Shown in pieces: positions 3,755 through 64,000 of a DNA stretch of 64,000 nucleotides (within the stretch, counting starts at the first letter, position 1; each line of letters opens with the position of its first letter). Both the position numbers and the translations under genes were made by a program. The DNA lies in assembly GCA_964498425.1 (NCBI GenBank), contig CAZCGQ010000004.1:24210-88209 (forward strand). The letters are read 5' to 3'. Under the pieces are notes generated by a model, which saw only the letters and a program-made list of their open reading frames with translations, was not told the origin of the DNA and made no database searches. Origin of the DNA: an uncultured Gammaproteobacteria bacterium. GTDB lineage: Bacteria > Patescibacteriota > Microgenomatia > UBA12405 > JAHJSD01.

Positions 3755-4480
3755 ATGGATTTAAAGGAAATCGCCATTAAAGGAACCAGTCAAGATCATT
3801 TGCCGATTGAGGATATTCAAAACAATTTGGTTATTCTCAAAGACGGAACAACAGTGATGATTGTTAAAACATCATCAGTCAACTTTGATCTACTTTCTGA
3901 AAAAGAACAAGACGCAATGATTTATGCCTACGCCGCTATGCTTAATTCCCTGACCTACCCAATAGAAATTATTGTCAGATCAACCGCCAAGGATGTTTCT
4001 AACTATTTAAAAAGAATAAAAAAGCAGGGTACTAAAATCAGCAACCCCCTGCTGAAAAAACAAATACAATCCTATCACGACTTCGTTGAGGAAGTAGTGG
4101 AAAAAAACAATGTTCTAGCTAAAACATTTTATATTGCTGTTCCCTTTTACCCGGCGGAGATGGGAACAGCGGCGGCCGCCCATTCATCAGTACCCGGATT
4201 TCTGTCATTTCTTAAAAAGGAAAAGAAAACTTTGCCAATGAGTAAAGAAAAAATCGTTGAAAAAGCCAATGCCGCCTTGGAACCAAAGCTGGAACACCTG
4301 ACCCGGCTTTTTGGCCGACTGGGCTTAACCGTAAAGCAATTGGAAACTAAAGAGCTTATCCGCTTATTTTATAAAATTTACAACCCAGAATCGTCTTTGG
4401 GAGAAAATATCGAAGCCTTAAATCAACAAGGTGTAATGATTCATGGACCAAAACAAGATGTTCAACAAAATACTCAATAA
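3755..4480 (+). CDS. VirB4-like ATPase N-terminal domain, encoded as a separate ORF (split from the ATPase core)
   Basis: 241-aa ORF whose last 38 nt overlap the start of the VirB4-like ATPase in another frame. Domain identity is inferred from position. Confidence 0.4.
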   Translation: MDLKEIAIKGTSQDHLPIEDIQNNLVILKDGTTVMIVKTSSVNFDLLSEKEQDAMIYAYAAMLNSLTYPIEIIVRSTAKDVSNYLKRIKKQGTKISNPLLKKQIQSYHDFVEEVVEKNNVLAKTFYIAVPFYPAEMGTAAAAHSSVPGFLSFLKKEKKTLPMSKEKIVEKANAALEPKLEHLTRLFGRLGLTVKQLETKELIRLFYKIYNPESSLGENIEALNQQGVMIHGPKQDVQQNTQ

Positions 4481-6505: not shown

Positions 6506-9500
6506 ATGGCTAAGGATGATTCCAAGAAACCTCCACTAAGAATAAAAAAGAGGTCAACGCAAACCTCTGAATCAATCTTAAACGGCAAGGTCAAAACTAA
6601 CGCTTTATCCCAATTTTTTCTAGAAACAATAACTAAATATGAAATAACCGAAAACGACAACTGGCAGGAGGTATTAGATAAAACCGGGTTTAACAAAGCT
6701 GAATTTCAAAGAGTGATCGACTACTTGGGAAACTTATTCGGTTTAATACAAAAGGATAACGAAACCTTTGGTGAATTCTTGGAAAGAGCAGTAAACTATC
6801 TTCATTACCACTACCCTCAAGAAGGTGAGATAATAACCGAGGCGAATGTCCCGGCAAATCTTGAGGAGCTAGTTGCTGACTTTGAAGCTCATCAAAAAGA
6901 GATTGAGGATATTAAGGCAAAAGTCCAGCTTAAAAATCAAGAAGTTGTTGCCCTTTTAGAGAGATTGCAAACAGATATTACCCTTTTCACCGCACAATCT
7001 CCGAAAAATCTCCGCATACCCTTAGATAGAAAGATAAAACTAGCAAAAAATATTGTTATTGACCAAGTAGAAACTGTAGAAAATATAAATCGTTCGGATA
7101 GGATAAATATTCCTCCTGAAGCCACCGCCAAAGTGAGTGCTTTTAGCCTTACTGCTGAGGACCCTACTGAATTTGAAACGGTACTGAAAAGCTTAGGTGT
7201 CAAATCGCCTAAAATTCCGACTATTCTCGACCAACTTGCCGAAAATAAGCTAATTTTGCTCGGCCAAGCTATCGCCGTTGAAGATGTCCGCCAAGAAGCG
7301 GTAGATAAAGGTATCGATAATCAAACAATTGAAGCCAAGGCAAAGGAAATTGTCGTTGAGAAAAAAGAACTGGTTAAAGAGAAAATTGAGGAAGAACTTC
7401 CTCGACTGGATAGACAATCCAAAGCAGAAGTCATCTCTGCCAGCCTAACTGACGATTATCAACAAGTATCAGAGGTACTGGATAAAGCCAATGTTACAGC
7501 TTCAAGAAAGAATAAGATTATTTCTGAAATTAAAGTCAGAAATGCTGATTTGGCAGCCCAAGCAGTTGTCAAGATAGTTGCCGGTGGTTTTCCAGAAGTT
7601 GCTGACGAACAAATTACAGTTGATACCGCCCGATTGCTAGAATTACAAACCGAAAAGGCACAGGAAATAGCTGACCAAGCCGGCTTTAAAATACCAGCCG
7701 CCACGGCCGTTAAAATGGGCGCCCTCACTGTTGGCATTCCAGATTTAACCCAACCAGAAACAGATGCTGCTGCTGGAAAAGTTGATGAGTTTAAAAAATT
7801 GCTTGTTGACCTTGGTGAAAAGCCGCCTAAAATAGATACGATTTTAACTCAGCTCAGCCAAAATAGAAAAACACTTTTTAGTCAGGTTCAGGCTGAAAAA
7901 ACTATCAATCAAAAATTAGTTGAAAACAATCTTTCCATAGGCAGAGCTGAGGATACAGCCATTACCACAATCAAATCAAAAAAAGAGTTGATTGAGGAAA
8001 CAGTCGCCCAATACATTCCAGAGGCTAGTCAAAAAATCAGCGCTGAAATTGTTGCCTCCGCTTTAACTGATAATTTTGAATCTGTCCGCCAAAATCTTGA
8101 TCAAATTCCAAACCTTTCAAATGTTGACAAAACTGCTTTTTTTGAGGAAATTGCAGTAACCAACGAATTTTTGGCTGCCCAGGCAACAGTAGCGGACTTA
8201 ATCAAAAATTTACCAGATGAAATTGCCGCTACTGTTCCAGAAAGCTTTCAAGCTAAACTTAGACAACATCCGGAGGTTGTTAATCACATCGCCGGTCTAA
8301 TTGTTGACCAAACCGCTAAAGGCGCTTCTCAAGAAGAAATCCTTCCCTCAGTTATTATTCCAACAACAATTGCCATCAATAATTCCGGGATGACAATTGA
8401 AAAGGGTGAGGAAGAAGCTCTAAAACAAACGCTAACAAATATTCCCAACCCCACTTTGGAAATGGTTACTCTGGGAGAAGACGAATACTTTCAAACCTCA
8501 ATTCTGGTTGAACTAGAAAGGCAGATCCAAACCTATTTGGGAAGAAATATTCTTATTTCTCAACCTGATGGAAAGGCGAGATACTTAGATTTGGATGATA
8601 AAGTCAATGCTCGGGCAGCCAGAATGATGGCTGAGTTTCTCATCGTAAAGCCTAACGCCACCCAAGAGGAATTTTTAAACCAAAGCGAGGCTAAACTTGG
8701 CCTCCTTCCGGCTGAAAACCCAATTGAAGCCTTAGCCCAATTCAATACAGATCAGGATCCACTAATGGCTGCTGCTGTTGCCGCCAAAATGACTGAAGTT
8801 CCCCCTGACCAGCTTCAAGAACAAATAGTTGCTTGGCGGGATTTTGTTGACCAGCTTAAAGAAATGGGACAAGAGGAAGTAATTTATCAAGATAAACTGC
8901 TGGCAACCTTTGAGTCCTGGTACGGAGAGGAAGGAGTTGCTGAATATGTCTATAGCTCCCAGCTTTATCACGTCTACCACAACGTTAAACAAGTTTTTTC
9001 ACCGGTAATTAACCTTTATCAAAAACATATCCAGCCAAGAGTGAAAAAATTCTTAGCCGAAACAGCTGTGGGAAAAAGCATAAAAGCCGCGTTAGATAAA
9101 GGCAAAGATTATCTTAAAGAAAAAATCATTGAACCAGTTAAAAAATGGGTTTTTGAAAAAATAGCCCAAAAGCTCGCCGAAAAAGGGGTTGAAGTTGCCG
9201 TTAATGAAGGTGTTACTGCAGCAATTGCCGCCATTCTTGGCGTGCCAACTGTAGGTGTATCTGTTGCCCTTTGGCTTCTCTGGGAAGGAATTAAAATTGG
9301 CTATAACGCTCTCAAAACTGGCCTAGAAAAACTCGGCGTTGACCCGGTTACTATTTCCGAAAAAATTAATCGAACCTTTGGTTTTGGCATCGCTCCCCGA
9401 GTGAATAGAATTATTGATAAACTTCTCTTCTTCATCCCAGAAATCTTCCGGGATTTTATCAAATTTGTCTTTAACCTCTGGGAACCGGTTTTTTACGCCG

Positions 9501-44286: not shown

Positions 44287-45090
44287 CTACCAGGATAAAG
44301 TTTTAAACCTTGCGGGCAATTTTTTTCTTTGAGGCGGAGTATATTCTTTTCCTCGGTTTGGGCAGTTTATTTTACAGGTGGTTAGGCATTTACTTCTAGG
44401 TACCAGCGTGCCGTCTTGAATTTCTTCCAAACCGGCTTTTTGGAGCAAATCACGCTCAATAATAGATGATGAGCAGATAACAAATTCTTCTTTTCTGAAT
44501 ATTTCTCCCATAAATATTTGGGAGAGGGGAGAAATATGGGTGACCCTTTTCCAAGTTATCAGTTGTTTATTTGTTTGTCAACACTAGTCCACATAAGTTT
44601 TCCACATTAACTTGCTGGGCACTAGAAATAGCGGTTTTTGTACTTAAAATACAACGTAACAAATAATATGAGATGCCATTTTTTATACCTTTAAAATACT
44701 ATAAGACTTGACAAGGGCTGCAGGCAGTGTTAGATTAAAAATGGAAGATAGAAATTAGAAGCTGGAAGATAGGGATAATATTAATATGAAGAAGATAGTT
44801 GAATTGATTAGAGCCATTTTAAGCGTTTTTTTTAAAAAAGAGAAAGAGCAGGATTGGGCGCGAGACCAAATTTTGAAAATGGCAAAGTTAGGTGGAAGAC
44901 TAATTCTTTAAAAAGTAATTGGGCATTACAAAAAAAAGAGCATCATTATCGTCATTCCGGGCAAGTAAATATTGTGGAACGCGAATAACAATGCCCTTTA
45001 AGCTATGATAGCAAATGGTCAAGAATTGTCAACAAGATTTTTATCAAGAAATTTCGGAAAAAGGGACGAAATTTATACTTAAATAAGATA

Positions 45091-54678: not shown

Positions 54679-54992
54679 TATTGTAAACCTGGGATGTGTA
54701 AAATATCAATACCAATTAATTCTAGAATGAACAAGGAAAAAATAGCAAAAACCAAACCGGCAATGGCACTGGTTATTGTTTCCTGGCCAGCTTGAAGTTT
54801 TTCCTGGTTGCCGCCGGAGGTAATGACTAAAAACCCGCCGTATATCATTAATAAAAAAGCAATTCCGCCCATTATTCCTAACAATCGAGGAAACAACCAT
54901 TCGACAAAAACATTGCCGTCTGAAATTGGTATGCAGCCAATTGCGGTATTAATGTGTGAATCTCCGCCGGGACAAAATGGATCAACAGCCAT
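54678..54992 (-). CDS. Small two-TM membrane protein, VirB2/TrbC-pilin-like (paralog B)
   Basis: 104 aa. Two hydrophobic helices separated by a TSGGNQEKLQAG loop. Tandem to paralog A with a 1-nt overlap. Confidence 0.35.
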   Translation of the reverse strand: MAVDPFCPGGDSHINTAIGCIPISDGNVFVEWLFPRLLGIMGGIAFLLMIYGGFLVITSGGNQEKLQAGQETITSAIAGLVFAIFSLFILELIGIDILHIPGLQ

Positions 54993-56863
54993 GGTTGAAT
55001 TATAGCCAAGCTTTGTTTACTTCACAAGTATGTTCTATAATGACTTTAATGAAATTCCAGACCGAAGTTAAGCAGGTTTTGGGTACGCCGGACCAAGGCG
55101 CGTGGAGTCAAGTCCATCACTTTATCCCCAATCAAGAAGAAAAGTTTCTTAAACGTGGGGAATTGATTCTTTTGGTAAGTTTAGGAGAAATAGATGAGGA
55201 ACAACCAACAGCGAGCGTGGGCAGGGAAATTATATCGCGGTTTCATGAGGAATATTACGGCTCACTTGATAAAAAACCAATGGCAGCGTTGGAAGAGGCA
55301 GTTAATAAAGTTGCTAAGGAAAAATCGCAATATTTTGACAAGCCGGAAGAAATAAGTTTAATCAGCTTGGCTCTTTGGAAAAATATTGCTTATTTAGTTG
55401 TTTATCATCGAGGGAAAATTCTTCTTCGTCGGCAGGGAAAAACGGTGGATTTAGTTCAAACTGAAAATGGCCAGCCAATATCTGCTTCTGGCTTTATTCA
55501 ACCGGGCGATATTTTTATTTTAGGTACAACGGATTTTTTTGAAAAAATGCCGCAAACAATGATCCCATCAGGTATAGCTACCGAAGATATTGAGAGGATG
55601 TCAGAAATATGGGGGCCGGTTGTTCATGCGCGTGAAGATCAAGGTCGATTGGGAGTAGTGATGATTGAAATTGGAGCGGAGGAAAAAAAGATTGAGTTTG
55701 TTTCCGCTGATATGGAGGATAAGCCAAAGAAAATCAAAAAAAAACCAAAGTTGAAACTGCCTAAAATTAAGTTTGGTTGGTTGACAGGTTTCTTTAAAAA
55801 AATTTCAGGTTTATCAATTGCCATTGGTTTTTTAGCTTTGCTTGGTATTTCTATTTTTTTTGGCTGGAAAAAGCGTCGAGACCAAAAAAGATTAGATCAA
55901 GTGTCGGTTTTATCCACCCAAGTTGAGGAGAAGATTTCTAATGCCAATTCCATTCGAAATTTGGATCCAGAAGAGAGTATCAATTTGCTAAATCAGGCTG
56001 GTGAAATTAATCAGGAGCTTAAGGCTTATTCTCCGGCTCAAGCTAATACATATAAGCAAAGAATAGAGGAAATAAAGAGTAATTTGGGAGAAAAGGCTTT
56101 ATCTCCGGAGATGTTTTATGATTTGCATTTGGTTGCGGAGGGTATTGAAATTTCCTCGGTTTATACTGCTGATCAACAGGCTACAATTTTGGATACAAAG
56201 GGAAAGCGGTTGATTAGTGTTAATTTGTCTGATAAATCCGCCGAAATTGTTGCCGGCGGGGAGCCCCTCTCGCAATCAGGTTTAGTTGTAACATCTACGG
56301 ATAGAAATTATATCGTTACTGACAATATTTATTGGATTGATGATGAAGAAGTTGAGGAGTTAATTGACTTGGAAGATGATTATGAGCCGCAGTCAGCAGA
56401 TGGTTGGTTGGGGTCGCTTTATTTGCTTGACCGTGGGCAGGAGGAAATTTGGAAATTTCCCTCAATTACCGGGGGCTTAGGTGACGCGCGGCCTTGGCTA
56501 AATTCTAAGAGCGGTTTAGATTTTGATCAGCTTGTTGATATGGCGATTGACAGTAATATTTGGTTGTTGAGTAAAAATGGTCAGATTTATAAGTATTTGT
56601 CTGGGAACAGACAGGACTTGGAAATGGAAACACCTTCGGGGATTGGTGAGGCTAGATATTTAGCTCTTGCTGATGAAGCAGAAAGACTTGCTCTTTGGGA
56701 TAAAGGAAGCAAGATCGTTTGGCTTTTTTCAAAGCAGGGAACATTTTTAGCCCGCCAGCCGGTAGAAATGGAGAGTGTTCGGGGATTAGCGATTTCCTCT
56801 GACGGGACAGAAGTCTTTTTGTTTGGAGCTGATAAAATATACCGGGTTGAATTTCAATTGTAG
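54956..56863 (+). CDS. Hypothetical membrane protein (N-terminal domain vaguely PP2C/SpoIIE-like, central TM, C-terminal beta-rich domain)
   Basis: 635-aa ORF. Single TM GLSIAIGFLALLGISIFFGW mid-protein. The true start is probably downstream of 54956 (the 5' end overlaps the minus-strand gene). Confidence 0.3.
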   Translation: MNLRRDKMDQQPWLNYSQALFTSQVCSIMTLMKFQTEVKQVLGTPDQGAWSQVHHFIPNQEEKFLKRGELILLVSLGEIDEEQPTASVGREIISRFHEEYYGSLDKKPMAALEEAVNKVAKEKSQYFDKPEEISLISLALWKNIAYLVVYHRGKILLRRQGKTVDLVQTENGQPISASGFIQPGDIFILGTTDFFEKMPQTMIPSGIATEDIERMSEIWGPVVHAREDQGRLGVVMIEIGAEEKKIEFVSADMEDKPKKIKKKPKLKLPKIKFGWLTGFFKKISGLSIAIGFLALLGISIFFGWKKRRDQKRLDQVSVLSTQVEEKISNANSIRNLDPEESINLLNQAGEINQELKAYSPAQANTYKQRIEEIKSNLGEKALSPEMFYDLHLVAEGIEISSVYTADQQATILDTKGKRLISVNLSDKSAEIVAGGEPLSQSGLVVTSTDRNYIVTDNIYWIDDEEVEELIDLEDDYEPQSADGWLGSLYLLDRGQEEIWKFPSITGGLGDARPWLNSKSGLDFDQLVDMAIDSNIWLLSKNGQIYKYLSGNRQDLEMETPSGIGEARYLALADEAERLALWDKGSKIVWLFSKQGTFLARQPVEMESVRGLAISSDGTEVFLFGADKIYRVEFQL

Positions 56864-56886
56864 GGACAATAGTAGGATTGTCCCTG
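56861..56886. repeat. Palindrome TAGGGACAAT-agtag-GATTGTCCCT (copy 1 of 3) at the junction between the hypothetical gene and the SpoIID-like gene
   Basis: tagggacaatagtaggattgtccctg. Related to the perfect 28-bp palindrome at 60569-60596. Confidence 0.6.
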
Positions 56887-56895
56887 CGCATAACA

Positions 56896-58617
56896 ATGAA
56901 AAAAATTATTTTATTTCTAATCATATTTTTCGTTTTGGCCGTACCGGCAGGTGCGGCGGAATGTCATAAAGATTGTTCTACTATTGATGAATGCCAGCGG
57001 TTTATTGATGAATGCGGCGATGTTTTGGACCTTTATGATCAAGCAAATTTAAAGAACAAGGAAACTCTAGAGGAGTTTAGAACTCAGGTTAACCGTTTCG
57101 AAGCGATGATTGCTACGGCTGATAGGCAAGTTAACAATTTGGAAGAGGAAATAGTTGACCAAGAAGCGGATATAGAAGTGCAAAAAATTCTTTTGGCAAA
57201 CCGTGTTCGCCGGCTTTATGTTCATCAACAAAGTTTTTCAACTTTGACCATGTTCTTCGCGGCAGAGAACAGTGGCCATTTTATTCGAAAGATGTTTTAT
57301 CAACAGTTGGTGGCTAATGAAGACAAAAAAGCAATCGAAAAATTGTCCAGTCAACTAGCAGAATTAAAGGAGAGTAAGGACAAGGTTGAAGAAAATAAGG
57401 TATGGTTGGCCCAGAAAAAGAAGGAAATGGAATCAAAAATTTCTTTCATGGAAGGCGAAATTGCCAAAACAGAGGATTATTTAGATGTTCTGTCTACAAC
57501 AATTAAGAAGTTATCAGAAAAGCAGGAGAATTTGTTGGCCGCTCGTTCGGGTGATTTTACAACTAGTGTCGGAAATGTTCCGGTCAGTAAGATTCCCTGT
57601 TCAGGACCGCCGGGAAGCCCCAGCTATTGCGACCCCGGTGGAGGAAATTGGTTTGCTGCCTTTTCTCTTGGGGCCTGGACTCACCGTAAGGGAATGAGTC
57701 AATATGGGGCAAAGGGTAGAGCTGACGCCGGTCAGTCGGTTGATCAGATTTTGCAGGCTTATTACGGTAAGACTCCAGTTGATAAAGACACTTCGGGGAC
57801 AATTTCAGTTTCTGGTTACGGTAACCTTGATTTTGAAAACTACTATTTATATGGAATAGCAGAAATGCCAAGCAGTTGGCATAATGAGGCCCTAAAAGCT
57901 CAAGCAATTGCTGCCCGTACTTACGCCTATCGTTATAAGGCGGAAGGAAAAACGATATGTACAACCCAAGCCTGTCAGGTTTTTCGAAATGACAAGGCAG
58001 CGAGCCCGCCAGCGGCGTGGAAGCAAGCAGTTGATGAAACTCGAGGAAAGGTTCTGGAAGATGTAATTACCTACTATTCATCCACAGCCGGAGGTTATTT
58101 AACCACGCATTGTGGTTGGGATACGACTGATGGTCAAGGCGGTCCGGGTTTTGCTTCTCGGGCTTGGGAGTCAAAGGCCGGTTCTCCCTGGTTTTATTCC
58201 AGCTGGTACACTCAAAATTATACTTCTGGTTCGGCTAAATGCGGCCGTTCACACCCTTGGTTATCCGAGGAAGAGACAGCAGATATTCTTAATGCCTGGC
58301 TGGTTTTGAATAAACAGGGAAATGATGATCGTATTTTGCCAACAACAATAAACTCCTGCCCGATCGGTGGAGTTAGCGGCAATCCATATTCAATTGATGA
58401 AATGAGAAACAAAGCCGACGAGCATGGGGGAGCGTTTACATCGGTTACCAGTGCCTCCGTATCTTACAGTAATGATGGTTATACCTCGACGGTTACCCTA
58501 TCTACTAACAAGGGAACAGTTAATATTCCGGGATCAGAGTTTAAAAAAGCCTTTAATCTTCGCGCGCCGGGTTACATTGCTATCCGCAGCCCGCTCTTCA
58601 ACTTCGAAAGAAAGTAA
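56896..58617 (+). CDS. SpoIID/LytB-domain protein (peptidoglycan lytic enzyme / amidase enhancer) with N-terminal coiled coil
   Basis: SpoIID signature WTHRKGMSQYGAKGRA. Signal peptide MKKIILFLIIFFVLAVPAGA. Long coiled-coil N-terminal half. Confidence 0.55.
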   Translation: MKKIILFLIIFFVLAVPAGAAECHKDCSTIDECQRFIDECGDVLDLYDQANLKNKETLEEFRTQVNRFEAMIATADRQVNNLEEEIVDQEADIEVQKILLANRVRRLYVHQQSFSTLTMFFAAENSGHFIRKMFYQQLVANEDKKAIEKLSSQLAELKESKDKVEENKVWLAQKKKEMESKISFMEGEIAKTEDYLDVLSTTIKKLSEKQENLLAARSGDFTTSVGNVPVSKIPCSGPPGSPSYCDPGGGNWFAAFSLGAWTHRKGMSQYGAKGRADAGQSVDQILQAYYGKTPVDKDTSGTISVSGYGNLDFENYYLYGIAEMPSSWHNEALKAQAIAARTYAYRYKAEGKTICTTQACQVFRNDKAASPPAAWKQAVDETRGKVLEDVITYYSSTAGGYLTTHCGWDTTDGQGGPGFASRAWESKAGSPWFYSSWYTQNYTSGSAKCGRSHPWLSEEETADILNAWLVLNKQGNDDRILPTTINSCPIGGVSGNPYSIDEMRNKADEHGGAFTSVTSASVSYSNDGYTSTVTLSTNKGTVNIPGSEFKKAFNLRAPGYIAIRSPLFNFERK

Positions 58618-58620
58618 TTG

Positions 58621-58646
58621 TAGGGATAATTCTAGGATTGTCTTTA
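58621..58646. repeat. Degenerate copy of the TAGGGACAAT..GATTGTCCCTA palindrome (copy 2 of 3) between the SpoIID-like and ftsH stops
   Basis: tagggataattctaggattgtcttta. Confidence 0.45.
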
Positions 58647-60515
58647 TGAGTTTTCTTTAATAATATCCTCGAATTCTTCGCGGTTTAAAGTTTCCTTGGA
58701 CATTAGTTTATCTGCAACGGCGTCCAGGGATTTTTTCTGCTTTTTAAGGATGTCTTTAGCTGTTTGATAGGATTGGTTAACAAACCTTTTAATCTCTTCA
58801 TCAACACTGGCTTTAGTTTGAGGGGATACCTCGTCAGGCTCCATGTAGGCACTACCCCATTCAGTTGTGTCCATTTGGCGGCCAAAATAAAGTGGCCCGA
58901 GGTTGCTCATTCCGTATTCAACAACCATTTTACGGGCAATTTTAGTTGCGTGTTCAATATCTTTGGATGCACCTGAAGTCATTTCATCAAAAATCATTTC
59001 TTCAGCGGCTCGACCTCCCATCAAGGTAGTAATTCTCGACATTAGTCTGGTTTTACTTTCATGAACCCGGTCCTTTTCCGGCGGCATTAGGGTATAACCG
59101 AGGGCAATACCTCGGGCAACGACGGAAATTTTTTCAACGGGATCAGCTTCCGGACTGAAATGGCTGACGACTGCATGCCCAGCTTCGTGATAGGCCGAAA
59201 TTTTTTTCTCGTCTTCTGAAACTAATCTTTTCTTTTGCGGTCCTAGCTTAACCTTTATTGCCGCTTCGTCCAGCTCCTCCGGATCAATTTTTTCTTTATT
59301 ATTCCGGGCCGCTAAAATTGCTGCTTCGTTAAGCATATTTTCCAAATCAGCTCCTGAAAAACCAACAGTTCGGCGGGCAACATCTTTGAAAGAAACATTT
59401 TTGGCAAACGGCTTGCCTTCCGAATGCAGTTTGAGAATAGCTGTTCTTTCTCCCAGGTCAGGGAGATTAAAGACGATTCTTCTGTCAAATCTACCTGGTC
59501 GGGTTAAAGCCGGATCTAGAATATCGGGACGGTTAGTTGCTGCCAAAATAATTATTGTTTCATTGGGTTCCAAACCATCCATTTCAACTAATAGCTGATT
59601 TAAAGTTTGTTCTCTTTCTCCATGCCCACCGGCAAATCCCCCCATGCCTCGAACACCGCCGATAGCGTCAAGCTCGTCAATAAAAATAATTGCTTTTTGG
59701 GCCTTTCGAGCGTTTTCAAATAAGTCTCTGACCCGGCTGGCACCAATACCGACGAGCATTTCCATAAATTCCGATCCAGCCATGTGGAGAAAGGGAACTT
59801 TGGCCTCACCGGCAATTGCTCTAGCCATTAAGGTTTTTCCGGTTCCGCTTGGGCCAACTAAAAGGACTCCTTTTGGGATTCTGGCTCCCATTTTTTGATA
59901 TTTTTTCGGATTTTTTAGAAAGTCAACGATTTCTTTAATTTCATTCTTAGCCTCATCTAACCCGGCAACATCATCAAAGGTGGCTTTACCGTTCTTTTTG
60001 AAGAACTTAGCTTTTGATTTCCCGAAGGAAAAAATGCTTGATTGTGCTTGGCCGGCTTTTTTATAGATCATCCAGAAAATAAAACCGGTCAAAATGATTG
60101 GCCCTAATGTTCCAACCAAGTTGCCAATTATTTTTAGTAAGTCCTGGTTGTTAACTTGAAAATCTACTGATGTTGGTTCAATGCCGGCGTCAGCTAAGAT
60201 TTCACTAAAACTGACATTTGTTTCCTTTTGAGCAAAGACGGTTTGGTCATCTTCCAGGGTTAGCCTGATTCGGTCATCGATGACAACAATTTTCTCTACT
60301 TCATTGTTTTTTATTCTTTCTAAGGCCTTGGACAAACTGATTTCATTGTCCGGTTGATCAGTGAAAGAGGCAATGCCGCTGAGGGCGTAAACCACTAAAA
60401 GTCCAATAAGTACCGCCTGCCCAATTTTTTTCCAGAGCGGCTCTTTTGATTTTTTTTTCTTTCTTTTTTTCTTCGTCTTTTTTTGGTCAAAGATACTTAT
60501 TTTTTTCATCGCCAT
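58644..60515 (-). CDS. ftsH: ATP-dependent zinc metalloprotease FtsH
   Basis: AAA+ Walker A GVLLVGPSGTGKTLMARAIAGEA, SRH, and zinc-binding HEAGHAVV. N-terminal TM. 623 aa. Confidence 0.9.
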   Translation of the reverse strand: MAMKKISIFDQKKTKKKRKKKKSKEPLWKKIGQAVLIGLLVVYALSGIASFTDQPDNEISLSKALERIKNNEVEKIVVIDDRIRLTLEDDQTVFAQKETNVSFSEILADAGIEPTSVDFQVNNQDLLKIIGNLVGTLGPIILTGFIFWMIYKKAGQAQSSIFSFGKSKAKFFKKNGKATFDDVAGLDEAKNEIKEIVDFLKNPKKYQKMGARIPKGVLLVGPSGTGKTLMARAIAGEAKVPFLHMAGSEFMEMLVGIGASRVRDLFENARKAQKAIIFIDELDAIGGVRGMGGFAGGHGEREQTLNQLLVEMDGLEPNETIIILAATNRPDILDPALTRPGRFDRRIVFNLPDLGERTAILKLHSEGKPFAKNVSFKDVARRTVGFSGADLENMLNEAAILAARNNKEKIDPEELDEAAIKVKLGPQKKRLVSEDEKKISAYHEAGHAVVSHFSPEADPVEKISVVARGIALGYTLMPPEKDRVHESKTRLMSRITTLMGGRAAEEMIFDEMTSGASKDIEHATKIARKMVVEYGMSNLGPLYFGRQMDTTEWGSAYMEPDEVSPQTKASVDEEIKRFVNQSYQTAKDILKKQKKSLDAVADKLMSKETLNREEFEDIIKENS

Positions 60516-60568
60516 TTAGTATAACACAAGTTTAGCCGAAGGCTGAACGCATAATGCTAAACGCCTTT

Positions 60569-60596
60569 GTAGGGACAATCCTAGGATTGTCCCTAC
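60569..60596. repeat. Perfect 28-bp palindrome GTAGGGACAATC-CTAG-GATTGTCCCTAC in the divergent ftsH / 60622 promoter region (copy 3 of 3)
   Basis: gtagggacaatcctaggattgtccctac is exactly self-complementary. Confidence 0.7.
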
Positions 60597-60621
60597 GGAA
60601 TATCAGACTTTAGTCTGCGTT

Positions 60622-61359
60622 GTGTTAAAATATGTCATGGCAGATATTTATAAGCCTGAGCCGCCACCCTCACGAGTTGAAGAAGAGGAAGAAACCCCTA
60701 AGGTTGACAAATCCAAGCCCAAAAAGAAAAAAAGAAAAGCGGATGAAACGAAGAGCTCGAAAACTCCCCGTGATAAAGTTTACCAAATTGTAGGGACAAG
60801 TTACAATCCTTTATCCTCCTTTGTTGCCCGACCAAAACATACTAATTTTGAAACACAATATGACGGTGAAGAAGTAATTTTGCTTCTCCGTCGGCACGTT
60901 ATTACTAATGTCGGTTGGATGATTATGTCTTTTCTCTTGATTTTTGTTCCTTTATTAGTAACCAATTTTCCCTTAATTAGTTTTTTACCGTCCCGATTTC
61001 AATTTGTTTTTTTACTGATGTGGTATTTGTTTGTTTTTGCCTATACTTTAGAAAGCTTTCTTTCCTGGTATTTTAATGTTTACATTATTACTGATGAGAG
61101 AATTGTTGATGTTGATTTTTACAATTTAGCTTACAAAGAAATTTCGGACGCGGAGATAGAAAACATTGAAGATGTAACCCTGGTTATGGGTGGGGCGATT
61201 CAAACAATTTTTAATTATGGTAACGTAAGGATACAAACGGCTGGTCAAGTTCCAGAATTCTGCTTCGAGTTAGTTCCACAGCCCTCCAAAATCGTTGATA
61301 TTTTAAAGCAATTACAGTTAGAAGAGAAGCAGGAAGAGCTTGAAGGGAGAGTAATGTAA
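60622..61359 (+). CDS. Membrane protein with bacterial PH-like (YdbS/bPH_2-like) C-terminal domain
   Basis: K/E-rich N-terminus, two TM helices (MIMSFLLIFVPLLVTNFPLISF, FVFLLMWYLFVFAYTL), then ITDERIVDVDFYNLAYKEISDAEIENIEDV. Confidence 0.3.
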   Translation: MLKYVMADIYKPEPPPSRVEEEEETPKVDKSKPKKKKRKADETKSSKTPRDKVYQIVGTSYNPLSSFVARPKHTNFETQYDGEEVILLLRRHVITNVGWMIMSFLLIFVPLLVTNFPLISFLPSRFQFVFLLMWYLFVFAYTLESFLSWYFNVYIITDERIVDVDFYNLAYKEISDAEIENIEDVTLVMGGAIQTIFNYGNVRIQTAGQVPEFCFELVPQPSKIVDILKQLQLEEKQEELEGRVM

Positions 61360-61423
61360 TGAAGAAAACACGAAGCACTAAGTACGAATTACTAAACAAT
61401 ATTAAAATTTTAATTATTAATTA

Positions 61424-61500
61424 TCAAAACTTTTCGAATTTCGATATTCCCCGGTCTCGCCGAGGCGAAGCCGAGGGCGGACGAATTTCGGATTTAAGTC
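61424..61500. repeat. Intergenic repeat-family copy (AAAACTTTTCGAATTTCGATATTC ... GAATTTCGGATTTAAG) with an embedded GC hairpin
   Basis: Segment 61424-61447 is the reverse complement of 14961-14984. The terminal gaatttcggatttaag matches 17300-17316. Confidence 0.55.
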
Positions 61501-61501
61501 A

Positions 61502-61732
61502 ATGAACGCTTTCATTGAATTTGTAACTGGTGTTTCTATTTGGCAGGTGGCTAAGATATTTGTTTTAGTTGCTTTAGTTATTTATGCTATTTTTGCCTGG
61601 GTAGTTGTTCGACAGGTGAATTTAATGACAAGGGTAGTTTCGGGAGAATTAGACCTGCCAATCAAGATTATTTCTTGGCTGCACTTTTTCTTTTCCATTT
61701 TCATTATCTTCCTCGCCTTTGTTGTCCTATAA
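61502..61732 (+). CDS. Small hydrophobic membrane protein
   Basis: 76 aa with two predicted TM helices. Confidence 0.3.
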   Translation: MNAFIEFVTGVSIWQVAKIFVLVALVIYAIFAWVVVRQVNLMTRVVSGELDLPIKIISWLHFFFSIFIIFLAFVVL

Positions 61733-61772
61733 TCTGCCAACAATTATTCACGATCGTGAGCAATTGTTGAAG

Positions 61773-63560
61773 TTAGGTTTTCTTTAGGTCTTCTAAAGAA
61801 AGGTTGTAGTCGTGGGAAAATTGTTCCCATTGACAGCGGCATTTTCCGGATAGGTGGACGGTATCTGGAACTAGCTTTTTATTTTCTAGGTGAGCCTGCC
61901 AAATTTTCAATCGTTCTTTTTTTCCATCAATTTTTACTTTGGTGTAAGCTCCTGGCCAGGGGTTAAAAGCCCGTACTTGGTTGACAATTTCTTCAGCCGG
62001 TTGAGCCCAATTAATTTCCGCTTCATCTTTTTTAATTTTACTAGCGTAGGTAGCCTCCTTTTCACTTTGAGGGTCCATAACCCAGAATTGAGGCTGATTG
62101 GTTTGATAGAGGTCGGAGAAAATTGGAACGATTTTTTGGGCAGCTGACTGAAATAACCGGTTTGTTAATTGTCCGGCGGTTTCATCAGACTTAACTGATG
62201 TTTTTTCTTGGGTAATTATTGGGCCGGCATCCATTGCTTCAACAAGTTTGAAAATCGTCCAGCCGGTTTCTTTTTCACCGGCTTCAATCGTTCTAATTGT
62301 TGGAGCGGCTCCACGCCATTTGGGCAAAAGTGAGGGGTGAATGTTTAAAAGTATATTAAACCAATTTAACCATGATTTGGGAATTATATTTCCATAGACG
62401 GCAACGATACCCCAATGAGGCTTATATTTAAGTTTTCTTTCCACTTTTTGGCGGGTTTTGTAGCTAAGCTTTTCCAATTTAAAAGTTGTTAGATTTTGTT
62501 TCTTGGCGAATTGGCCGAGTGGGCATGCTTTGACTTTTTGGCCGCGGCCGCATTGACGGTCGGGTTTAGTAATTACTGCTCCGACAGGGATATCCGCTTT
62601 CAATAATTCTTTTAAAATTAAGACGGATTCCGCACTTGAACCGAAAAATAATAACGGTTGTTTGAAAACATCTTGCTTGTGGGGCGGAGTATGTTTAAGA
62701 ATGAGGTGCTTGGTGTTAGTGGTTAGCGATTGGTCGATATTTTTACCGCGTATTAAGGCAGTTGGACCAATAAAATTAGCTGGGTAAACAATTTTGTCAC
62801 TGGGTTGAGCCAGTTCTTCTAGCCGTTTGTTTTCGTCTTCATCCTTACCAATAATTACCAAACGATCACCTTGCCAAAAATGTCGGCCGACTTTTAATAA
62901 TTTTGCATCATCAACATGCAAATTAGAGAAGTGATCTTTAAGGTCAAACACTTTTTCTCCAAATCCCTTTTCAGTCAGCATGCATCCACCAGCCGGTTGT
63001 TGATAGGAAAGATTAGCCTTATTTGCTAAATCAATTTGAGTTTTTCTGCTTCTGCCGCTGATGCCAAAAAGTTCTTCTCGGTTAAGCCAGCCTTTTTTTT
63101 CAGGACCGGTTGGCTCCAATTTTTGGGCAGACAACGGGCGGACAAGAAGCTCATTTAGTCCGGATTTAGTAGCTAAAAGTTCCATTGCCTCTTTGTTTTG
63201 GGAGAACGGTCGTTGACCGATAACTTCACCGGTAGCAACAAAATTAAAGTTTTCCTTGTCAAGAATTTCTTTGGACTTTTTAAGCATAATCAGGTGGCAG
63301 TCGATGCAGGGGTTAGCTGCTCCGCCAAAGCCGTGTTCCGGACTTTCAATCGCTTCCAACAGTTCTTTAGAAATATCAATAACCTCGTAAGGAATATTTA
63401 GTTGTTTTGCCGCCTGGACACCACGTTGGGAATCAAAGAAGACACTTTCAAAAATTAGGCCTTTTATCTCAATCCCTTGCTGCCTAATTAACCAAGCAGC
63501 TAGAACCGAATCCAAGCCACCTGAAATTAAAACCAAAGCTTTAATGTCTTTTTTCTTCAT
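61773..63560 (-). CDS. fmt: Fusion protein: N-terminal PP-loop ATP pyrophosphatase domain (SGGxDS; QueC/ThiI/LarE-like) joined to a complete methionyl-tRNA formyltransferase
   Basis: N-terminus ALVLISGGLDSVLAAW (PP-loop) with Cys motifs PCIDCH and GGCM. C-terminal half carries the Fmt signature HPSLLPKWRGAAPI and the Fmt C-terminal domain. Continuous 595-aa ORF. Confidence 0.6.
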   Translation of the reverse strand: MKKKDIKALVLISGGLDSVLAAWLIRQQGIEIKGLIFESVFFDSQRGVQAAKQLNIPYEVIDISKELLEAIESPEHGFGGAANPCIDCHLIMLKKSKEILDKENFNFVATGEVIGQRPFSQNKEAMELLATKSGLNELLVRPLSAQKLEPTGPEKKGWLNREELFGISGRSRKTQIDLANKANLSYQQPAGGCMLTEKGFGEKVFDLKDHFSNLHVDDAKLLKVGRHFWQGDRLVIIGKDEDENKRLEELAQPSDKIVYPANFIGPTALIRGKNIDQSLTTNTKHLILKHTPPHKQDVFKQPLLFFGSSAESVLILKELLKADIPVGAVITKPDRQCGRGQKVKACPLGQFAKKQNLTTFKLEKLSYKTRQKVERKLKYKPHWGIVAVYGNIIPKSWLNWFNILLNIHPSLLPKWRGAAPTIRTIEAGEKETGWTIFKLVEAMDAGPIITQEKTSVKSDETAGQLTNRLFQSAAQKIVPIFSDLYQTNQPQFWVMDPQSEKEATYASKIKKDEAEINWAQPAEEIVNQVRAFNPWPGAYTKVKIDGKKERLKIWQAHLENKKLVPDTVHLSGKCRCQWEQFSHDYNLSLEDLKKT

Positions 63561-63593
63561 ACCTGGATTATATCATCCGGAAGTAGACGGAAG

Positions 63594-63670
63594 TGGTGGC
63601 AGGGAAGGGAGTCGAACCCTTGACCTCCGGGTTATGATTCCGACGCTCTAACCAACTGAGCTACCCTGCC
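63594..63670 (-). tRNA. tRNA-Met (anticodon CAT; elongator Met or Ile2 type)
   Basis: The reverse complement folds as GGCAGGG-TA-GCTC..GAGC-..loop ATCATAA..-T arm GGTTCGA(C)TCC-CCCTGCC-A-CCA. The CCA is encoded. Confidence 0.75.
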
Positions 63671-63676
63671 TGAGTC

Positions 63677-63753
63677 TGGTGGACCCGAGCGGATTCGAAC
63701 CGCTGACCTTCCGAATGCAAATCGGATGCTCTAGCCAACTGAGCCACGGGCCC
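63677..63753 (-). tRNA. tRNA-Ala (anticodon TGC)
   Basis: Reverse complement GGGCCCGTGGCTCAGTTGGCTAGAGCATCCGATTTGCATTCGGAAGGTCAGCGGTTCGAATCCGCTCGGGTCCACCA. Anticodon loop TTTGCAT. G3:U70 is absent, but the anticodon is unambiguous. Confidence 0.75.
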
Positions 63754-63764
63754 TTAGGGGAAAT

Positions 63765-63837
63765 TGGTTGCGGGGCCAGGAGTCGAACCTGGTCTGTGAG
63801 GTTATGGGCCTCACGTGCTGCCGTACACTACCCCGCG
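63765..63837 (-). tRNA. Initiator tRNA-fMet (anticodon CAT, C1:A72 mismatch)
   Basis: Reverse complement CGCGGGG...CCCATAA...TTCGACT...CCCCGCAACCA closely parallels the E. coli tRNA-fMet ends (CGCGGGG / CCCCGCAACCA), including the C1-A72 mismatch. Confidence 0.7.
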
Positions 63838-64000
63838 CTAGTAGAGTTATTATACGTTTTATACCTAAGCGATGTCAAATTAACTAACTTTCTGCGAAGA
63901 AGAGGTCCCACCACTGTTTCCAGGCCGGTGAATTGGGAGATATTTTTCTTCCCTGGTGCTTATTCGGCAAATCCGGCAGTTCTGGAAGAACCAAAACAAG

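What the first reader, a model, noticed from the sequence alone, without database searches (positions are those of the whole stretch)
56861..60596. Three copies of a TAGGGACAATC..GATTGTCCCTA palindrome (one perfect 28-bp) bracketing the SpoIID-like and ftsH genes
A perfect self-complementary 28-mer, gtagggacaatcctaggattgtccctac (60569-60596), sits in the divergent region between ftsH and the gene starting at 60622. A near-perfect copy (56861-86) overlaps the stop of the upstream gene and precedes the SpoIID-like gene. A degenerate copy (58621-46) lies between the SpoIID-like and ftsH stops.

No T-run follows them, so they are unlikely to be simple intrinsic terminators. A dimeric regulator operator, or a REP-like element flanking cell-envelope genes, is plausible.
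Basis: seen in the sequence. Interest (0 to 1): 0.55.

Follow-up and report, generated by a model that had tools for sequence, protein, structure and literature searches.

The report
Mobile REP palindromes, not an operator
The three palindromes are copies of a small selfish DNA hairpin (a "REP" element) associated with a known family of domesticated transposases found in many bacterial phyla, so they are genome passengers and not a switch controlling the neighbouring cell-envelope genes.

Summary
There is one perfect 28-nt palindrome, GTAGGGACAATCCTAGGATTGTCCCTAC (60569-60596), and two decayed copies (56860-56887 and 58620-58647). Shuffled sequence gives none.

They are not a local operator. 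The identical 28-mer occurs in several copies per genome in MAGs labelled as many different phyla, in unrelated gene contexts. Each of the three window sites is empty in at least one close relative.

In 8 genome loci and about 7 metagenome loci, the palindrome sits in-frame inside a HUH/Y1 transposase-like gene. In some loci it also flanks that gene. The gene's best match is NCBIfam REP-associated tyrosine transposase, and a profile of the family hits E. coli TnpArep (PDB 4ER8).

This matches the published subclass 2.4 (RAYT group 4) of Quentin et al. 2018. [quoted passage not shown]

The window (Patescibacteria-like) therefore carries three REP elements of a known kind. Two of them supply the stop codons of neighbouring genes. 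No transposase gene lies within the 64 kb.

Local effects as RNA hairpins at gene ends are inferred, not shown. Verdict: new member of a known kind, modest interest.

The parts
56860..56887 (.). REP copy c1 (3 differences from the perfect form). Its GTAG foot supplies the TAG stop codon of the upstream 635-aa ORF. It ends 9 nt upstream of the SpoIID-like ATG.
   Evidence: sequence; foot TAG is the stop codon; RNA hairpin -17.6 kcal/mol, z = -5.4. The orthologous site in L005 is empty, with the two genes overlapping at ATGA.
58620..58647 (.). REP copy c2, decayed (5 differences, all C>T on the + strand). It lies between the convergent SpoIID-like and ftsH genes. The ftsH stop codon (TAA, 58644-58646 on the - strand) lies in its right foot.
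   Evidence: The hairpin folds only on the + strand (-9.9 versus 0 kcal/mol). The orthologous site holds a perfect copy in L058, is empty in L068 where the two stop codons abut, and holds a different 87-nt sequence in L005.
60569..60596 (.). REP copy c3, a perfect 28-nt double-foot palindrome (GTAG...CTAC) between the divergent ftsH gene and the 240-aa gene.
   Evidence: Hairpin -23.3 kcal/mol. It is shared with L005 with 1 loop mismatch and the same flanks, and is absent from L067, L068 and L058.
54956..56863 (+). 635-aa ORF with no family match. Its stop codon is the TAG of the c1 foot.
56897..58617 (+). SpoIID-domain protein. The probable start is the ATG at 56897; the mechanical ORF begins at the TTG at 56878, inside c1.
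   Evidence: PF08486, E = 2.7e-20. The ATG aligns with the start in L005.
58644..60515 (-). ftsH. The stop codon lies inside c2. The probable true start is the ATG at 60509, 8 nt after a conserved extended -10 box.
60518..60526 (-). Conserved TGTTATACT (extended -10-like) box for ftsH. c3 begins 42 nt beyond it, upstream of the expected -35 position. The role of this box is inferred.
   Evidence: Invariant block TTAGTATAACA in alignment A2 of the window, L005, L067 and L068; also present in L058.
60623..60631 (+). TGTTAAAAT (extended -10-like) box, 5 nt before the ATG at 60637 of the 240-aa gene. c3 ends 26 nt upstream of it. The role of this box is inferred.
   Evidence: The box is conserved in relatives that lack c3.

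Best explanation
The three palindromes are one intact and two decaying copies of a repetitive extragenic palindrome (REP) of the 'double-foot' GTAG...CTAC type. This REP type is associated with subclass 2.4 (RAYT group 4) HUH/Y1 'REP-associated tyrosine transposases'.

Mechanism, by analogy with E. coli TnpA_REP and not shown here: on single-stranded DNA the 28-mer folds into a 12-14 bp hairpin. The transposase recognises the hairpin together with the GTAG foot, through the conserved W-Q-x4-[D/E]-x3-R residues. It then cuts and rejoins DNA through its HUH and tyrosine motifs, which scatters copies into short intergenic spacers.

In the window the copies are passengers.
- c1 and c2 landed right at gene ends and now provide the stop codons of the 635-aa ORF and of ftsH.
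- Where transcribed (c1, and c2 in the SpoIID sense), they would form stable RNA hairpins at the end of the upstream message. These could stabilise or attenuate the transcript. This is inferred.
- c3 sits between two divergent promoters and is probably not transcribed.
For: **REP anatomy**
- All three copies begin with GTAG and c3 also ends with CTAC. The stems are 12-14 bp with a CCTAGG centre.

**Dispersed and multi-copy**
- The strict pattern found 8 copies on 7 contigs of CAZDJQ01, a genome syntenic with the window.
- It found 6 in Uhrbacteria JAZDEQ01, 6 in JAPLVM01, 5 in CBDUSO01 and 7 in CAYVCQ01.
- It found single perfect copies in Fibrobacteres, Calditrichia, Zixiibacteriota and Ignavibacteria contigs.
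- The exact 28-mer occurs in 35 metagenome stretches, including at least 17 copies in the dataset Ga0154362.

**Context**
- Of 56 copies, 20 lie between tandem ORFs, 13 between convergent ORFs and only 4 between divergent ORFs.
- The foot TAG serves as a stop codon in 6. PMC3733652 reports the same behaviour for GTAG REPs.

**Mobility and expendability**
- c1 is empty in L005.
- c2 is empty in L068, perfect in L058 and replaced in L005.
- c3 is absent in L067 (FtsH 94% identical), L068 and L058.

**Cognate transposase**
- The palindrome lies in-frame inside a Y1_Tnp-like ORF in L006, L009, L016, L023, L033, L035, L054 and L063, and in about 7 metagenome loci.
- Copies also flank the gene, the 'REPtron' arrangement. 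In L089 the REP copies are at 93-120 and 732-759, with the gene at 175-708 and an internal copy at 460-487. L033 carries flanking copies at 3951-3978 and 4592-4619.
- The best family is NCBIfam NF047646 REP_Tyr_transpos, with Pfam PF01797.
- The family profile hits E. coli TnpArep, PDB 4ER8, at E = 8e-5 across the HUH and WQ...Y..NP motifs.
- Invariant residues H75, H77, W137, Y158 and N162, and nearly invariant Q138 and P163, fit the subclass 2.4 signature NH[IFV]H / WQ / YIxNNP.

**Literature match**
- Quentin et al. [quoted passage not shown]

**Link to the window's lineage**
- CAZDJQ01, the MAG syntenic with the window, encodes such a gene with an internal copy (L054).

**Co-inheritance of REP subtype and protein clade**
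- Among the 120 best homologues, 26 of the 29 proteins with the NxLSK helix carry the palindrome-encoded peptide (RDNPRIVPT or VGTILGLSL).
- None of the other 91 do.
Against: - No transposase homologue lies in the 64-kb window (tblastn). The rest of the source genome could not be read, so its copy number and the presence of its own RAYT are unknown.
- The NCBIfam scores (52-59 bits) are below the curated equivalog cutoff of 80.
- The single-sequence PDB search found nothing. Only the profile search did.
- No subclass 2.4 enzyme has been shown experimentally to move REPs; the mechanism rests on E. coli TnpA_REP.
- c3 differs at only 1 of 28 positions from its orthologue in L005, while the surrounding DNA is about 71% identical. 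Something therefore maintains it, either selection or homogenisation, and a host function is not excluded.
- The preference for G-U pairs on the sense strand, seen in c1 and c2, is not a general trend across the family.
Confidence: 0.85

Rival explanations
1. The palindrome is the operator of a homodimeric transcription factor that co-regulates ftsH, the SpoIID-like gene and their neighbours, in the manner of a heat-shock or envelope-stress regulon such as CIRCE/HrcA.
For: - It has perfect dyad symmetry.
- c3 lies in a divergent promoter region next to ftsH, a classic stress gene.
- c3 is conserved with L005 at 27 of 28 positions.
Against: - All three sites are empty in close relatives whose -10 boxes and genes are intact.
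- c3 lies upstream of both putative -35 positions. c1 and c2 lie at gene ends.
- The identical 28-mer occurs beside unrelated genes in many labelled phyla and inside ORFs. Real operators vary between sites.
- No HTH protein lies nearby.
Confidence: 0.04
2. The hairpins are primarily host RNA elements, acting as 3'-end stabilisers or factor-dependent terminators. They are kept because they tune expression of the flanking genes, and the link to a transposase is only historical.
For: - c1 and c2 sit exactly at stop codons and form stable RNA hairpins in the sense of the upstream gene.
- In c2 all 5 changes keep G-U pairing on the SpoIID-sense strand only.
- Uhrbacteria copies are embedded between A-runs and T-runs like bidirectional terminators (L002 and L030).
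- The REP literature reports such roles.
Against: - The sites are dispensable in relatives.
- c3 is probably untranscribed.
- The five c2 changes are all C>T on one strand, which strand-biased deamination explains equally well.
- Imperfect copies across the family show no sense-strand wobble bias (about 4 for, 4 against).
- This is a secondary use and does not exclude REP origin.
Confidence: 0.08
3. The 28-mers are core sites of a tyrosine recombinase, with Xer/dif-like 11-6-11 architecture. Under this reading they would delimit movable gene modules, as pdif sites do on Acinetobacter plasmids (my recollection of that system; not checked here).
For: The length and layout (11-nt arms around the 6-nt centre CCTAGG) resemble dif. 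The copies bracket two genes.
Against: - The bracketed genes are conserved housekeeping genes in conserved synteny whether or not the sites are present.
- No recombinase is associated with the sites.
- The recurrent neighbour is a HUH/Y1 enzyme.
- Copies occur singly and inside ORFs.
Confidence: 0.01
4. The palindrome is an assembly or library artefact, such as an adapter or a chimeric junction.
For: A perfect palindrome, identical in many datasets. One Logan contig (L104) ends exactly at c3.
Against: - It is present in assemblies from different projects and assemblers.
- Decayed copies and compensatory variants exist, such as ACAAC...GTTGT in L033.
- It is translated in-frame in hundreds of independent protein records.
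- It lies at orthologous sites in relatives.
Confidence: 0.01

Closest known systems
Double-foot GTAG REPs of TnpA_Y1 subclass 2.4 (= RAYT group 4 of Bertels et al.), described by Quentin, Siguier, Chandler & Fichant 2018 (PMC6006769)
   Same: - 5' GT[AG]G and 3' C[TC]AC feet on one long hairpin.
[quoted passage not shown]
- Motifs NH[IFV]H, WQ and YI..NP.
- Variable-length loop built of short repeats.
- Scattered over many phyla.
   Different: - That study found the subclass mainly in Cyanobacteria and Bacteroidetes. Here the hosts are Patescibacteria lineages plus Fibrobacteres, Calditrichia and others.
- This exact 28-mer is identical across labelled phyla while the proteins are only 41-60% identical. 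I did not find this point in that paper.
- Copy numbers are low, from a few to tens per genome.
- No transposase gene lies in the window itself.
E. coli REP/BIME elements and TnpA_REP (YafM; PDB 4ER8)
   Same: - A GTAG-footed hairpin dispersed in extragenic spacers, mostly at gene 3' ends.
- A HUH/Y1 enzyme with a WQ...[D/E]H..R GTAG-recognition segment and a Y...NP motif.
   Different: - E. coli REPs are single-foot, imperfect, bulged and GC-rich, with hundreds of copies, often as BIME pairs.
- The E. coli enzyme is subclass 2.2 (DHLH, WE) and has no REP inside its gene.
- Sequence similarity here is detectable only with a profile.
REPIN-RAYT systems of Pseudomonas (Bertels & Rainey)
   Same: Short palindromic non-autonomous elements tied to a low-copy domesticated transposase. 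Copies are maintained over long times and cluster locally.
   Different: - REPINs are dimers of two inverted REPs with a spacer. Here a single perfect palindrome carries both feet, which Quentin et al. note could arise by central deletion of a dimer.
- REPIN systems are described as mostly vertically inherited and lineage-specific in sequence. This 28-mer is shared across phyla.
IS200/IS605 subterminal hairpins and their MITE derivatives
   Same: Hairpins recognised on single-stranded DNA by a Y1 HUH transposase.
   Different: There is no IS structure, no tnpB, and no distinct left and right ends. The enzyme has the class 2 Y...NP motif and not Y...Q.
Palindromic operators conserved across phyla (CIRCE/HrcA; my recollection of that system)
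   Same: An inverted repeat upstream of a stress gene (ftsH), with a sequence shared by distant bacteria.
   Different: Operators sit at fixed positions relative to promoters of orthologous genes and vary between sites. Here the positions are gene ends, ORF interiors and unrelated spacers, the sequence is identical between sites, and the sites are dispensable.

Membership tests
REP (repetitive extragenic palindrome), GTAG super-family | 20-40 nt palindrome able to form a stem-loop | tested here: met
   28 nt with 12-14 bp stems. Folding energies are -23.3 (c3), -17.6 (c1) and -9.9 (c2) kcal/mol. No shuffle folds as well.
REP (repetitive extragenic palindrome), GTAG super-family | Conserved GT[AG]G tetranucleotide at the foot of the hairpin | tested here: met
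   All three window copies start with GTAG, and c3 also ends with CTAC, the 'double foot'. The same holds in about 90 copies elsewhere.
REP (repetitive extragenic palindrome), GTAG super-family | [quoted passage not shown] | tested here: inconclusive
   The window has 3 copies in 64 kb, all within 3.7 kb. In related or other genomes the feature is met, with 5-8 strict copies on different contigs and at least 17 in Ga0154362.
REP (repetitive extragenic palindrome), GTAG super-family | Preferential location downstream of ORFs (tandem or convergent spacers), often overlapping stop codons | tested here: met
   Of 56 copies, 33 lie in tandem or convergent spacers and 4 in divergent ones. The foot TAG is a stop codon in 6 cases, including c1; c2 holds the ftsH stop.
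REP (repetitive extragenic palindrome), GTAG super-family | Presence/absence polymorphism at orthologous sites (non-essential, inserted DNA) | tested here: met
   Empty sites exist for c1 (L005), c2 (L068) and c3 (L067, L068, L058).
RAYT / TnpA_REP subclass 2.4 system (REPtron) | A HUH/Y1 transposase gene flanked by the same REP | tested here: met
   Met in other genomes: L089, L033, L054, L006 and L027. Not met in the window itself, where tblastn finds no homologue.
RAYT / TnpA_REP subclass 2.4 system (REPtron) | [quoted passage not shown] | tested here: met
   Seen in 8 genome loci and about 7 metagenome loci, in two reading frames: VGTILGLSL and RDNPRIVPT. 26 of the 120 best homologues carry the peptide.
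RAYT / TnpA_REP subclass 2.4 system (REPtron) | Motifs NH[IFV]H, WQ and YIxNNP | tested here: met
   Consensus MPNHxHGI ... WQRSFYDHIIR ... YIxxNP. H75, H77, W137, Y158 and N162 are invariant, and Q138 and P163 nearly so, compared with Table 1 of PMC6006769.
RAYT / TnpA_REP subclass 2.4 system (REPtron) | Curated family score (NCBIfam NF047646 REP_Tyr_transpos, cutoff 80 bits) | tested here: not met
   It is the best and only hit, but at 51.6 and 58.9 bits. Pfam PF01797 passes its 23-bit cutoff for 3 of the 5 RAYT-like proteins that scored, with two at 22.7-22.8 bits. The family profile hits 4ER8 at E = 8e-5.
RAYT / TnpA_REP subclass 2.4 system (REPtron) | The enzyme binds and cleaves its REP on single-stranded DNA | not testable with these tools
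   Biochemistry exists only for E. coli TnpA_REP (papers listed).
Transcription-factor operator | Fixed position relative to promoters of orthologous genes, conserved in relatives | tested here: not met
   The sites are absent in relatives whose promoter boxes are conserved. The positions are gene ends and ORF interiors.
Intrinsic terminator | GC-rich stem followed directly by a U-run | tested here: not met
   The terminator scan does not call any of the three copies. Some Uhrbacteria copies do have A/T-run flanks.

The most novel reading that the evidence does not exclude
The copy carried inside the transposase gene may act as a heritable 'master copy'. Because it lies within the coding sequence, REP and enzyme can never be separated by horizontal transfer. 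That would explain two observations. One exact 28-mer is shared by genomes labelled Patescibacteria, Fibrobacteres, Calditrichia, Zixiibacteriota, Ignavibacteria and Leptospirales, while the proteins have diverged to 41-60% identity. The REP subtype also tracks the protein clade (26 of 29 versus 0 of 91). If this is correct, the system is a self-contained gene-plus-site unit that is still active in the very small genomes of Patescibacteria, where repeats are thought to be rare (my own understanding).
Probability: 0.25. Interest if true: 0.55.

Novelty: new member of a known kind. Interest (0 to 1): 0.3.

Why it matters
For annotating this window, it removes a tempting but wrong regulatory story, namely an 'envelope-stress operator' around ftsH and SpoIID. 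It also explains three oddities: stop codons donated by a repeat, a doubtful TTG start for the SpoIID-like gene, and an assembly break at c3.

More broadly, it adds Patescibacteria and several other labelled phyla to the hosts of subclass 2.4 REP/RAYT systems. It also gives a compact, sequence-defined substrate (one 28-mer plus 160-190 aa enzymes such as the one in L089) for testing how these enzymes recognise double-foot REPs, and why a copy is kept inside the gene.

Tried and rejected
- **Half-site searches in the window**. These found only the three copies plus chance-level single half-sites, for example at 44770 and 60791.
- **Exact look-up of the window's FtsH** to obtain the source contig. 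It failed twice. The cluster look-up gave no name. Only a 3.1-kb Logan contig was retrievable. The genome-wide count and a search for the organism's own RAYT were therefore impossible.
- **Single-sequence PDB search** with the L033 transposase: no hit. The profile search was needed.
- **Is the hairpin generally kept on the sense RNA strand through G-U pairs?** There is no trend across imperfect copies. The striking c2 pattern is equally explained by five C>T changes on one strand.
- **Conserved target sequence next to the feet.** None was found, only a weak pyrimidine preference at position -1. About 10% of copies have long complementary flanks.
- **Phage carriage as a vector.** There are 0 exact copies in the viral contigs.
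- **Rfam.** No RNA family matches at the three sites.
- **A second repeat family** seeded by TAGTCTGCGTT next to c3. It occurs only in the window and in L005.
- **A weak tblastn 'RAYT' hit in L097.** It turned out to be spurious; the neighbours are PIN and AbrB-like genes and 2-oxoglutarate dehydrogenase.
- **The comparison of palindrome identity (99%) with flanking coding DNA (57-62%).** It is biased, because the loci were retrieved by matching the palindrome. I do not use it as evidence; the protein-based survey is the unbiased version.

Full report
**1. The observation**

The three copies exist as described, within 1 nt of the stated coordinates.

- c1, 56860-56887: GTAGGGACAATAGTAGGATTGTCCCTGC.
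- c2, 58620-58647: GTAGGGATAATTCTAGGATTGTCTTTAT.
- c3, 60569-60596: the perfect palindrome GTAGGGACAATCCTAGGATTGTCCCTAC.

Dinucleotide-preserving shuffles of the window give no match to the 22-mer at up to 3 mismatches, or to the 28-mer pattern. The rest of the window holds only chance-level half-sites.

The copies relate to their neighbours as follows.

- The TAG in the foot of c1 is the stop codon of the 635-aa ORF 54956-56863. c1 ends 9 nt before the probable ATG (56897) of the SpoIID-domain gene.
- c2 begins 2 nt after the SpoIID stop codon and contains the ftsH stop codon (58644-58646).
- c3 lies between ftsH and a 240-aa gene of unknown family.

As RNA, c1 folds at -17.6 and c3 at -23.3 kcal/mol. 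c2 folds at -9.9 kcal/mol on the + strand and not at all on the - strand. None of the three meets terminator criteria, and no Rfam family matches.

**2. The host**

The window encodes CPR-typical families (T4SS_pilin, DUF5657). The best named relatives of its FtsH are Patescibacteria, Microgenomates-group, Shapirobacteria and Woesebacteria proteins. I therefore treat the organism as a member of the Patescibacteria.

**3. The same 28-mer elsewhere**

A scan of one genome per species with GGGAYAATNNTAGGATTGTC returned 66 loci. About 20 of these are non-palindromic matches inside ORFs of unrelated bacteria. That is roughly the number I expect by chance for about 17.5 specified bases in 596 Gb (my estimate). 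The rest are the full GTAGGGACAAT..ATTGTCCCTAC palindrome.

| MAG or lineage (record label) | Strict copies |
|---|---|
| CAZDJQ01 | 8, on 7 contigs |
| Uhrbacteria JAZDEQ01 | 6 |
| JAPLVM01 | 6 |
| CBDUSO01 | 5 |
| 'Leptospirales' CAYVCQ01 | 7, several on a 437-kb contig |
| Fibrobacteres (570-kb contig, 61% GC locus) | 1, perfect |
| Calditrichia (1-Mb contig) | 1, perfect |
| Zixiibacteriota | 1, perfect |
| Ignavibacteria | 1, perfect |

The exact 28-mer also occurs in 35 metagenome stretches. At least 17 of those copies fall on 13 contigs of one dataset, Ga0154362. That organism encodes 2-oxoglutarate dehydrogenase, so it is unlikely to be a CPR member. The viral contigs hold none.

An operator tied to ftsH and SpoIID cannot explain this distribution.

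**4. Presence and absence at the three window sites**

L005 (CAYSLZ01) is syntenic with window 56330-63935 at about 71% nucleotide identity, and L058 (CAZDJQ01) with 57443-60230. I also fetched contigs for FtsH proteins 94% and 86% identical to the window's (L067 and L068). These two were chosen without regard to the palindrome.

| Site | Window | Relatives |
|---|---|---|
| c1 | decayed copy | L005 empty: the two genes overlap at ATGA |
| c2 | decayed copy | L058 perfect copy, with the SpoIID TAG overlapping the foot; L068 empty, with the SpoIID TAG abutting the ftsH TTA; L005 an unrelated 87-nt spacer |
| c3 | perfect copy | L005 has it with one loop mismatch inside a shared block of about 100 nt; L067, L068 and L058 lack it |

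The relatives that lack c3 keep the two promoter-proximal boxes. The elements are therefore inserted, dispensable DNA.

**5. The associated gene**

I clustered the ORFs lying within 3 kb of perfect copies. One family recurred across genomes, and its members contain the palindrome. These are 150-240-aa proteins with MPNH(V/I/F)HGI, WQRSF(Y/H)D.IIR and YI..NP motifs.

- They hit Pfam Y1_Tnp.
- Their only NCBIfam hit is REP-associated tyrosine transposase, below the curated cutoff.
- A 41-sequence profile hits E. coli TnpArep, PDB 4ER8, at E = 8e-5 over the HUH and WQ...Y..NP segments.

The palindrome lies in the loop after the HUH motif. It is read in two different frames, VGTILGLSL or RDNPRIVPT. 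The third frame contains TAG stop codons.

Copies also flank the gene.

- L089 is a complete unit: REP 93-120, gene 175-708 with an internal copy at 460-487, and REP 732-759.
- L033 has variant flanking copies. One shows compensatory ACAAC...GTTGT changes.
- In L054 a flanking copy supplies the stop codon of the gene.
- L054 belongs to CAZDJQ01, the MAG syntenic with the window.

The window itself has no homologue of the gene.

**6. A family-wide feature**

A search with the L033 protein found 885 homologues. In the best 120, the loop after the HUH motif usually encodes a translated GTAGGGAC...GTCCCTAC palindrome.

- 26 proteins carry the window's subtype.
- At least 57 carry other subtypes, with peptides such as VGTGRDLSLQ or DRSRPVPT that correspond to an ACAGGTCGCGACCTGT centre.

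The window's subtype is confined to the clade whose next helix reads ...N(L/T)LSKTINAFKTT: 26 of 29 proteins there, against 0 of 91 elsewhere. The REP subtype and the protein clade are therefore inherited together.

**7. Comparison with the literature**

Quentin et al. 2018 (PMC6006769) describe subclass 2.4 of the TnpA_Y1 family, which equals RAYT group 4.

- Its motifs are NH[IFV]H, WQ and YIxNNP.
- Its REPs include 'double foot' forms with 5' GT[AG]G and 3' C[TC]AC.
[quoted passage not shown] Di Nocera et al. 2013 (PMC3733652) report that GTAG REPs lie mostly between unidirectional and convergent ORFs, often donate the TAG stop codon to a flanking ORF, and are sometimes intragenic.

My counts agree. 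Of 56 copies, 20 lie between tandem ORFs, 13 between convergent ORFs and 4 between divergent ORFs, and the foot TAG is a stop codon in 6. Intragenic copies occur in what look by eye like Elp3-like (L006) and subtilase-like (L017) genes (not checked against Pfam).

The window's palindromes are therefore members of a described kind.

**8. How it probably works**

*Shown here:* the anatomy, the dispersal, the dispensability, and the association with and embedding in the transposase gene.

*Inferred from E. coli TnpA_REP:* hairpin formation on single-stranded DNA, recognition of the GTAG foot by the W-Q-x4-[D/E]-x3-R segment (conserved here as WQRSFYDHIIR), and cleavage and joining by the HUH and Tyr motifs.

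*Inferred local consequences:*

- c1 and c2 would give the upstream messages a stable 3' hairpin.
- The five changes in c2 are all C>T on the + strand. This keeps G-U pairing in the SpoIID-sense RNA only. Strand-biased deamination explains the pattern equally well, and the family as a whole shows no sense-strand bias.
- c3 lies upstream of both putative -35 positions. The conserved extended -10-like boxes are TGTTATACT at 60518-60526 and TGTTAAAAT at 60623-60631. They sit 8 and 5 nt from the ATGs at 60509 and 60637, suggesting leaderless messages.
- c3 is therefore probably untranscribed. It differs from the L005 copy at only 1 of 28 positions, where surrounding DNA is about 71% identical, so it is maintained by selection or by homogenisation.

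**9. Verdict**

The operator reading is rejected and the REP reading is confirmed and made specific.

- Novelty: a new member of a known kind.
- Modest new points: the Patescibacteria hosts, the low copy number, and one exact 28-mer shared across phylum labels while the enzymes have diverged to 41-60% identity.
- Caveats: the phylum names come from record titles. The 'Gammaproteobacteria' MAGs syntenic with this window are probably mislabelled. The window's own genome could not be surveyed.

Noticed in passing
window 60507-60526 and 60623-60639: Both divergent genes appear to be leaderless. A conserved extended -10-like box lies 8 nt before the second in-frame ATG of ftsH (60509), and another lies 5 nt before the ATG at 60637 of the 240-aa gene. 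The same geometry occurs in L067, L068 and L058. The mechanical ORF starts (60515 and 60622) are probably wrong.
   Followed up: partly
window 60604-60617; L005 counterpart in alignment A2: A small hairpin next to c3, CAGACTTTAGTCTG, reads CGGACTTCAGTCCG in L005. This is a compensatory A>G/T>C double change that keeps the stem. It lies where the -35 of the 240-aa gene would be. It is not a repeat family, as the seed occurs only at these two places.
   Followed up: partly
window 58620-58647: All five differences of c2 from the perfect REP are C>T on the + strand. The hairpin therefore survives, through G-U pairs, only in the SpoIID-sense strand. This points either to selection on that RNA or to strand-biased deamination.
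   Followed up: partly
L058 1221-4433 (CAZDJQ01); proteins P0134, P0136, P0146, P0216, P0219: In several relatives FtsH is about 1070 aa and carries intein domains (Intein_splicing PF14890 in all five, LAGLIDADG_3 PF14528 in P0134, P0136 and P0146). The window's 623-aa FtsH lacks an intein.
   Followed up: no
L104 (Logan SRR15425351 contig, 3142 nt), equivalent to window about 60570-63711: An independent assembly of the same organism ends at the position corresponding to about window 60570 (my coordinate mapping), that is, at the edge of c3. This suggests the perfect palindrome breaks short-k assemblies. Several other loci also have copies at contig ends (L011, L014, L037, L038, L049).
   Followed up: no
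L005, L024 (CAYSLZ01); L012, L014, L034, L045, L046, L054, L058 (CAZDJQ01); L001, L027 (CAYXSV01): Records titled 'uncultured Gammaproteobacteria bacterium' are syntenic at about 70% identity with this window. The window has Patescibacteria-type genes and its FtsH relatives are Patescibacteria. The taxonomic labels of these TPA assemblies look wrong.
   Followed up: partly
L027 1871-2428 (-): This RAYT homologue carries two internal GTAG-type palindromes of other sequence, GGGCGGAC...GTCCGCCCCTAC and GTAGGGACAGAC...GTCTGTCC. A window-type REP lies 26 nt past its stop codon. One gene is thus associated with several REP subtypes.
   Followed up: no
L033 4186-4244; L051 about 2955-3008; L017 about 1312-1363; L053 about 2550-2640: Some copies are nested in longer palindromes built from extra half-sites (GGGACAAT at a 12-13 nt period). 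Inside ORFs these give peptide repeats such as IVPTIGIVPTIGIVPTMGIVPT. This suggests half-site slippage or REP-into-REP insertion.
   Followed up: no
L002 7366-7417; L030 4801-4852; L020 365-416 (Uhrbacteria JAZDEQ01): In this genome the REP is embedded in a longer repeat, AAAAAATAAT-REP-ATTATTTTTT. It looks like a bidirectional intrinsic terminator built around the REP, unlike the window copies.
   Followed up: no
L006 5540-7369 (-); L017 813-2258 (+): Window-type REPs are inserted in-frame in ordinary genes that look, by eye, like an Elp3-like radical-SAM/acetyltransferase (peptide SRDNPRIVPTQ) and a subtilisin-like protease (two insertions). These gene identities were not checked against Pfam.
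   Followed up: no
L007 about 7389-7420 (Muribaculaceae): The palindrome GCGGGACAATCTTAGGATTGTCCCGC is followed by a T-run. It has the same core arms but a GC foot in place of GTAG, and it looks like an ordinary terminator. This may be chance resemblance or a distant relative.
   Followed up: no
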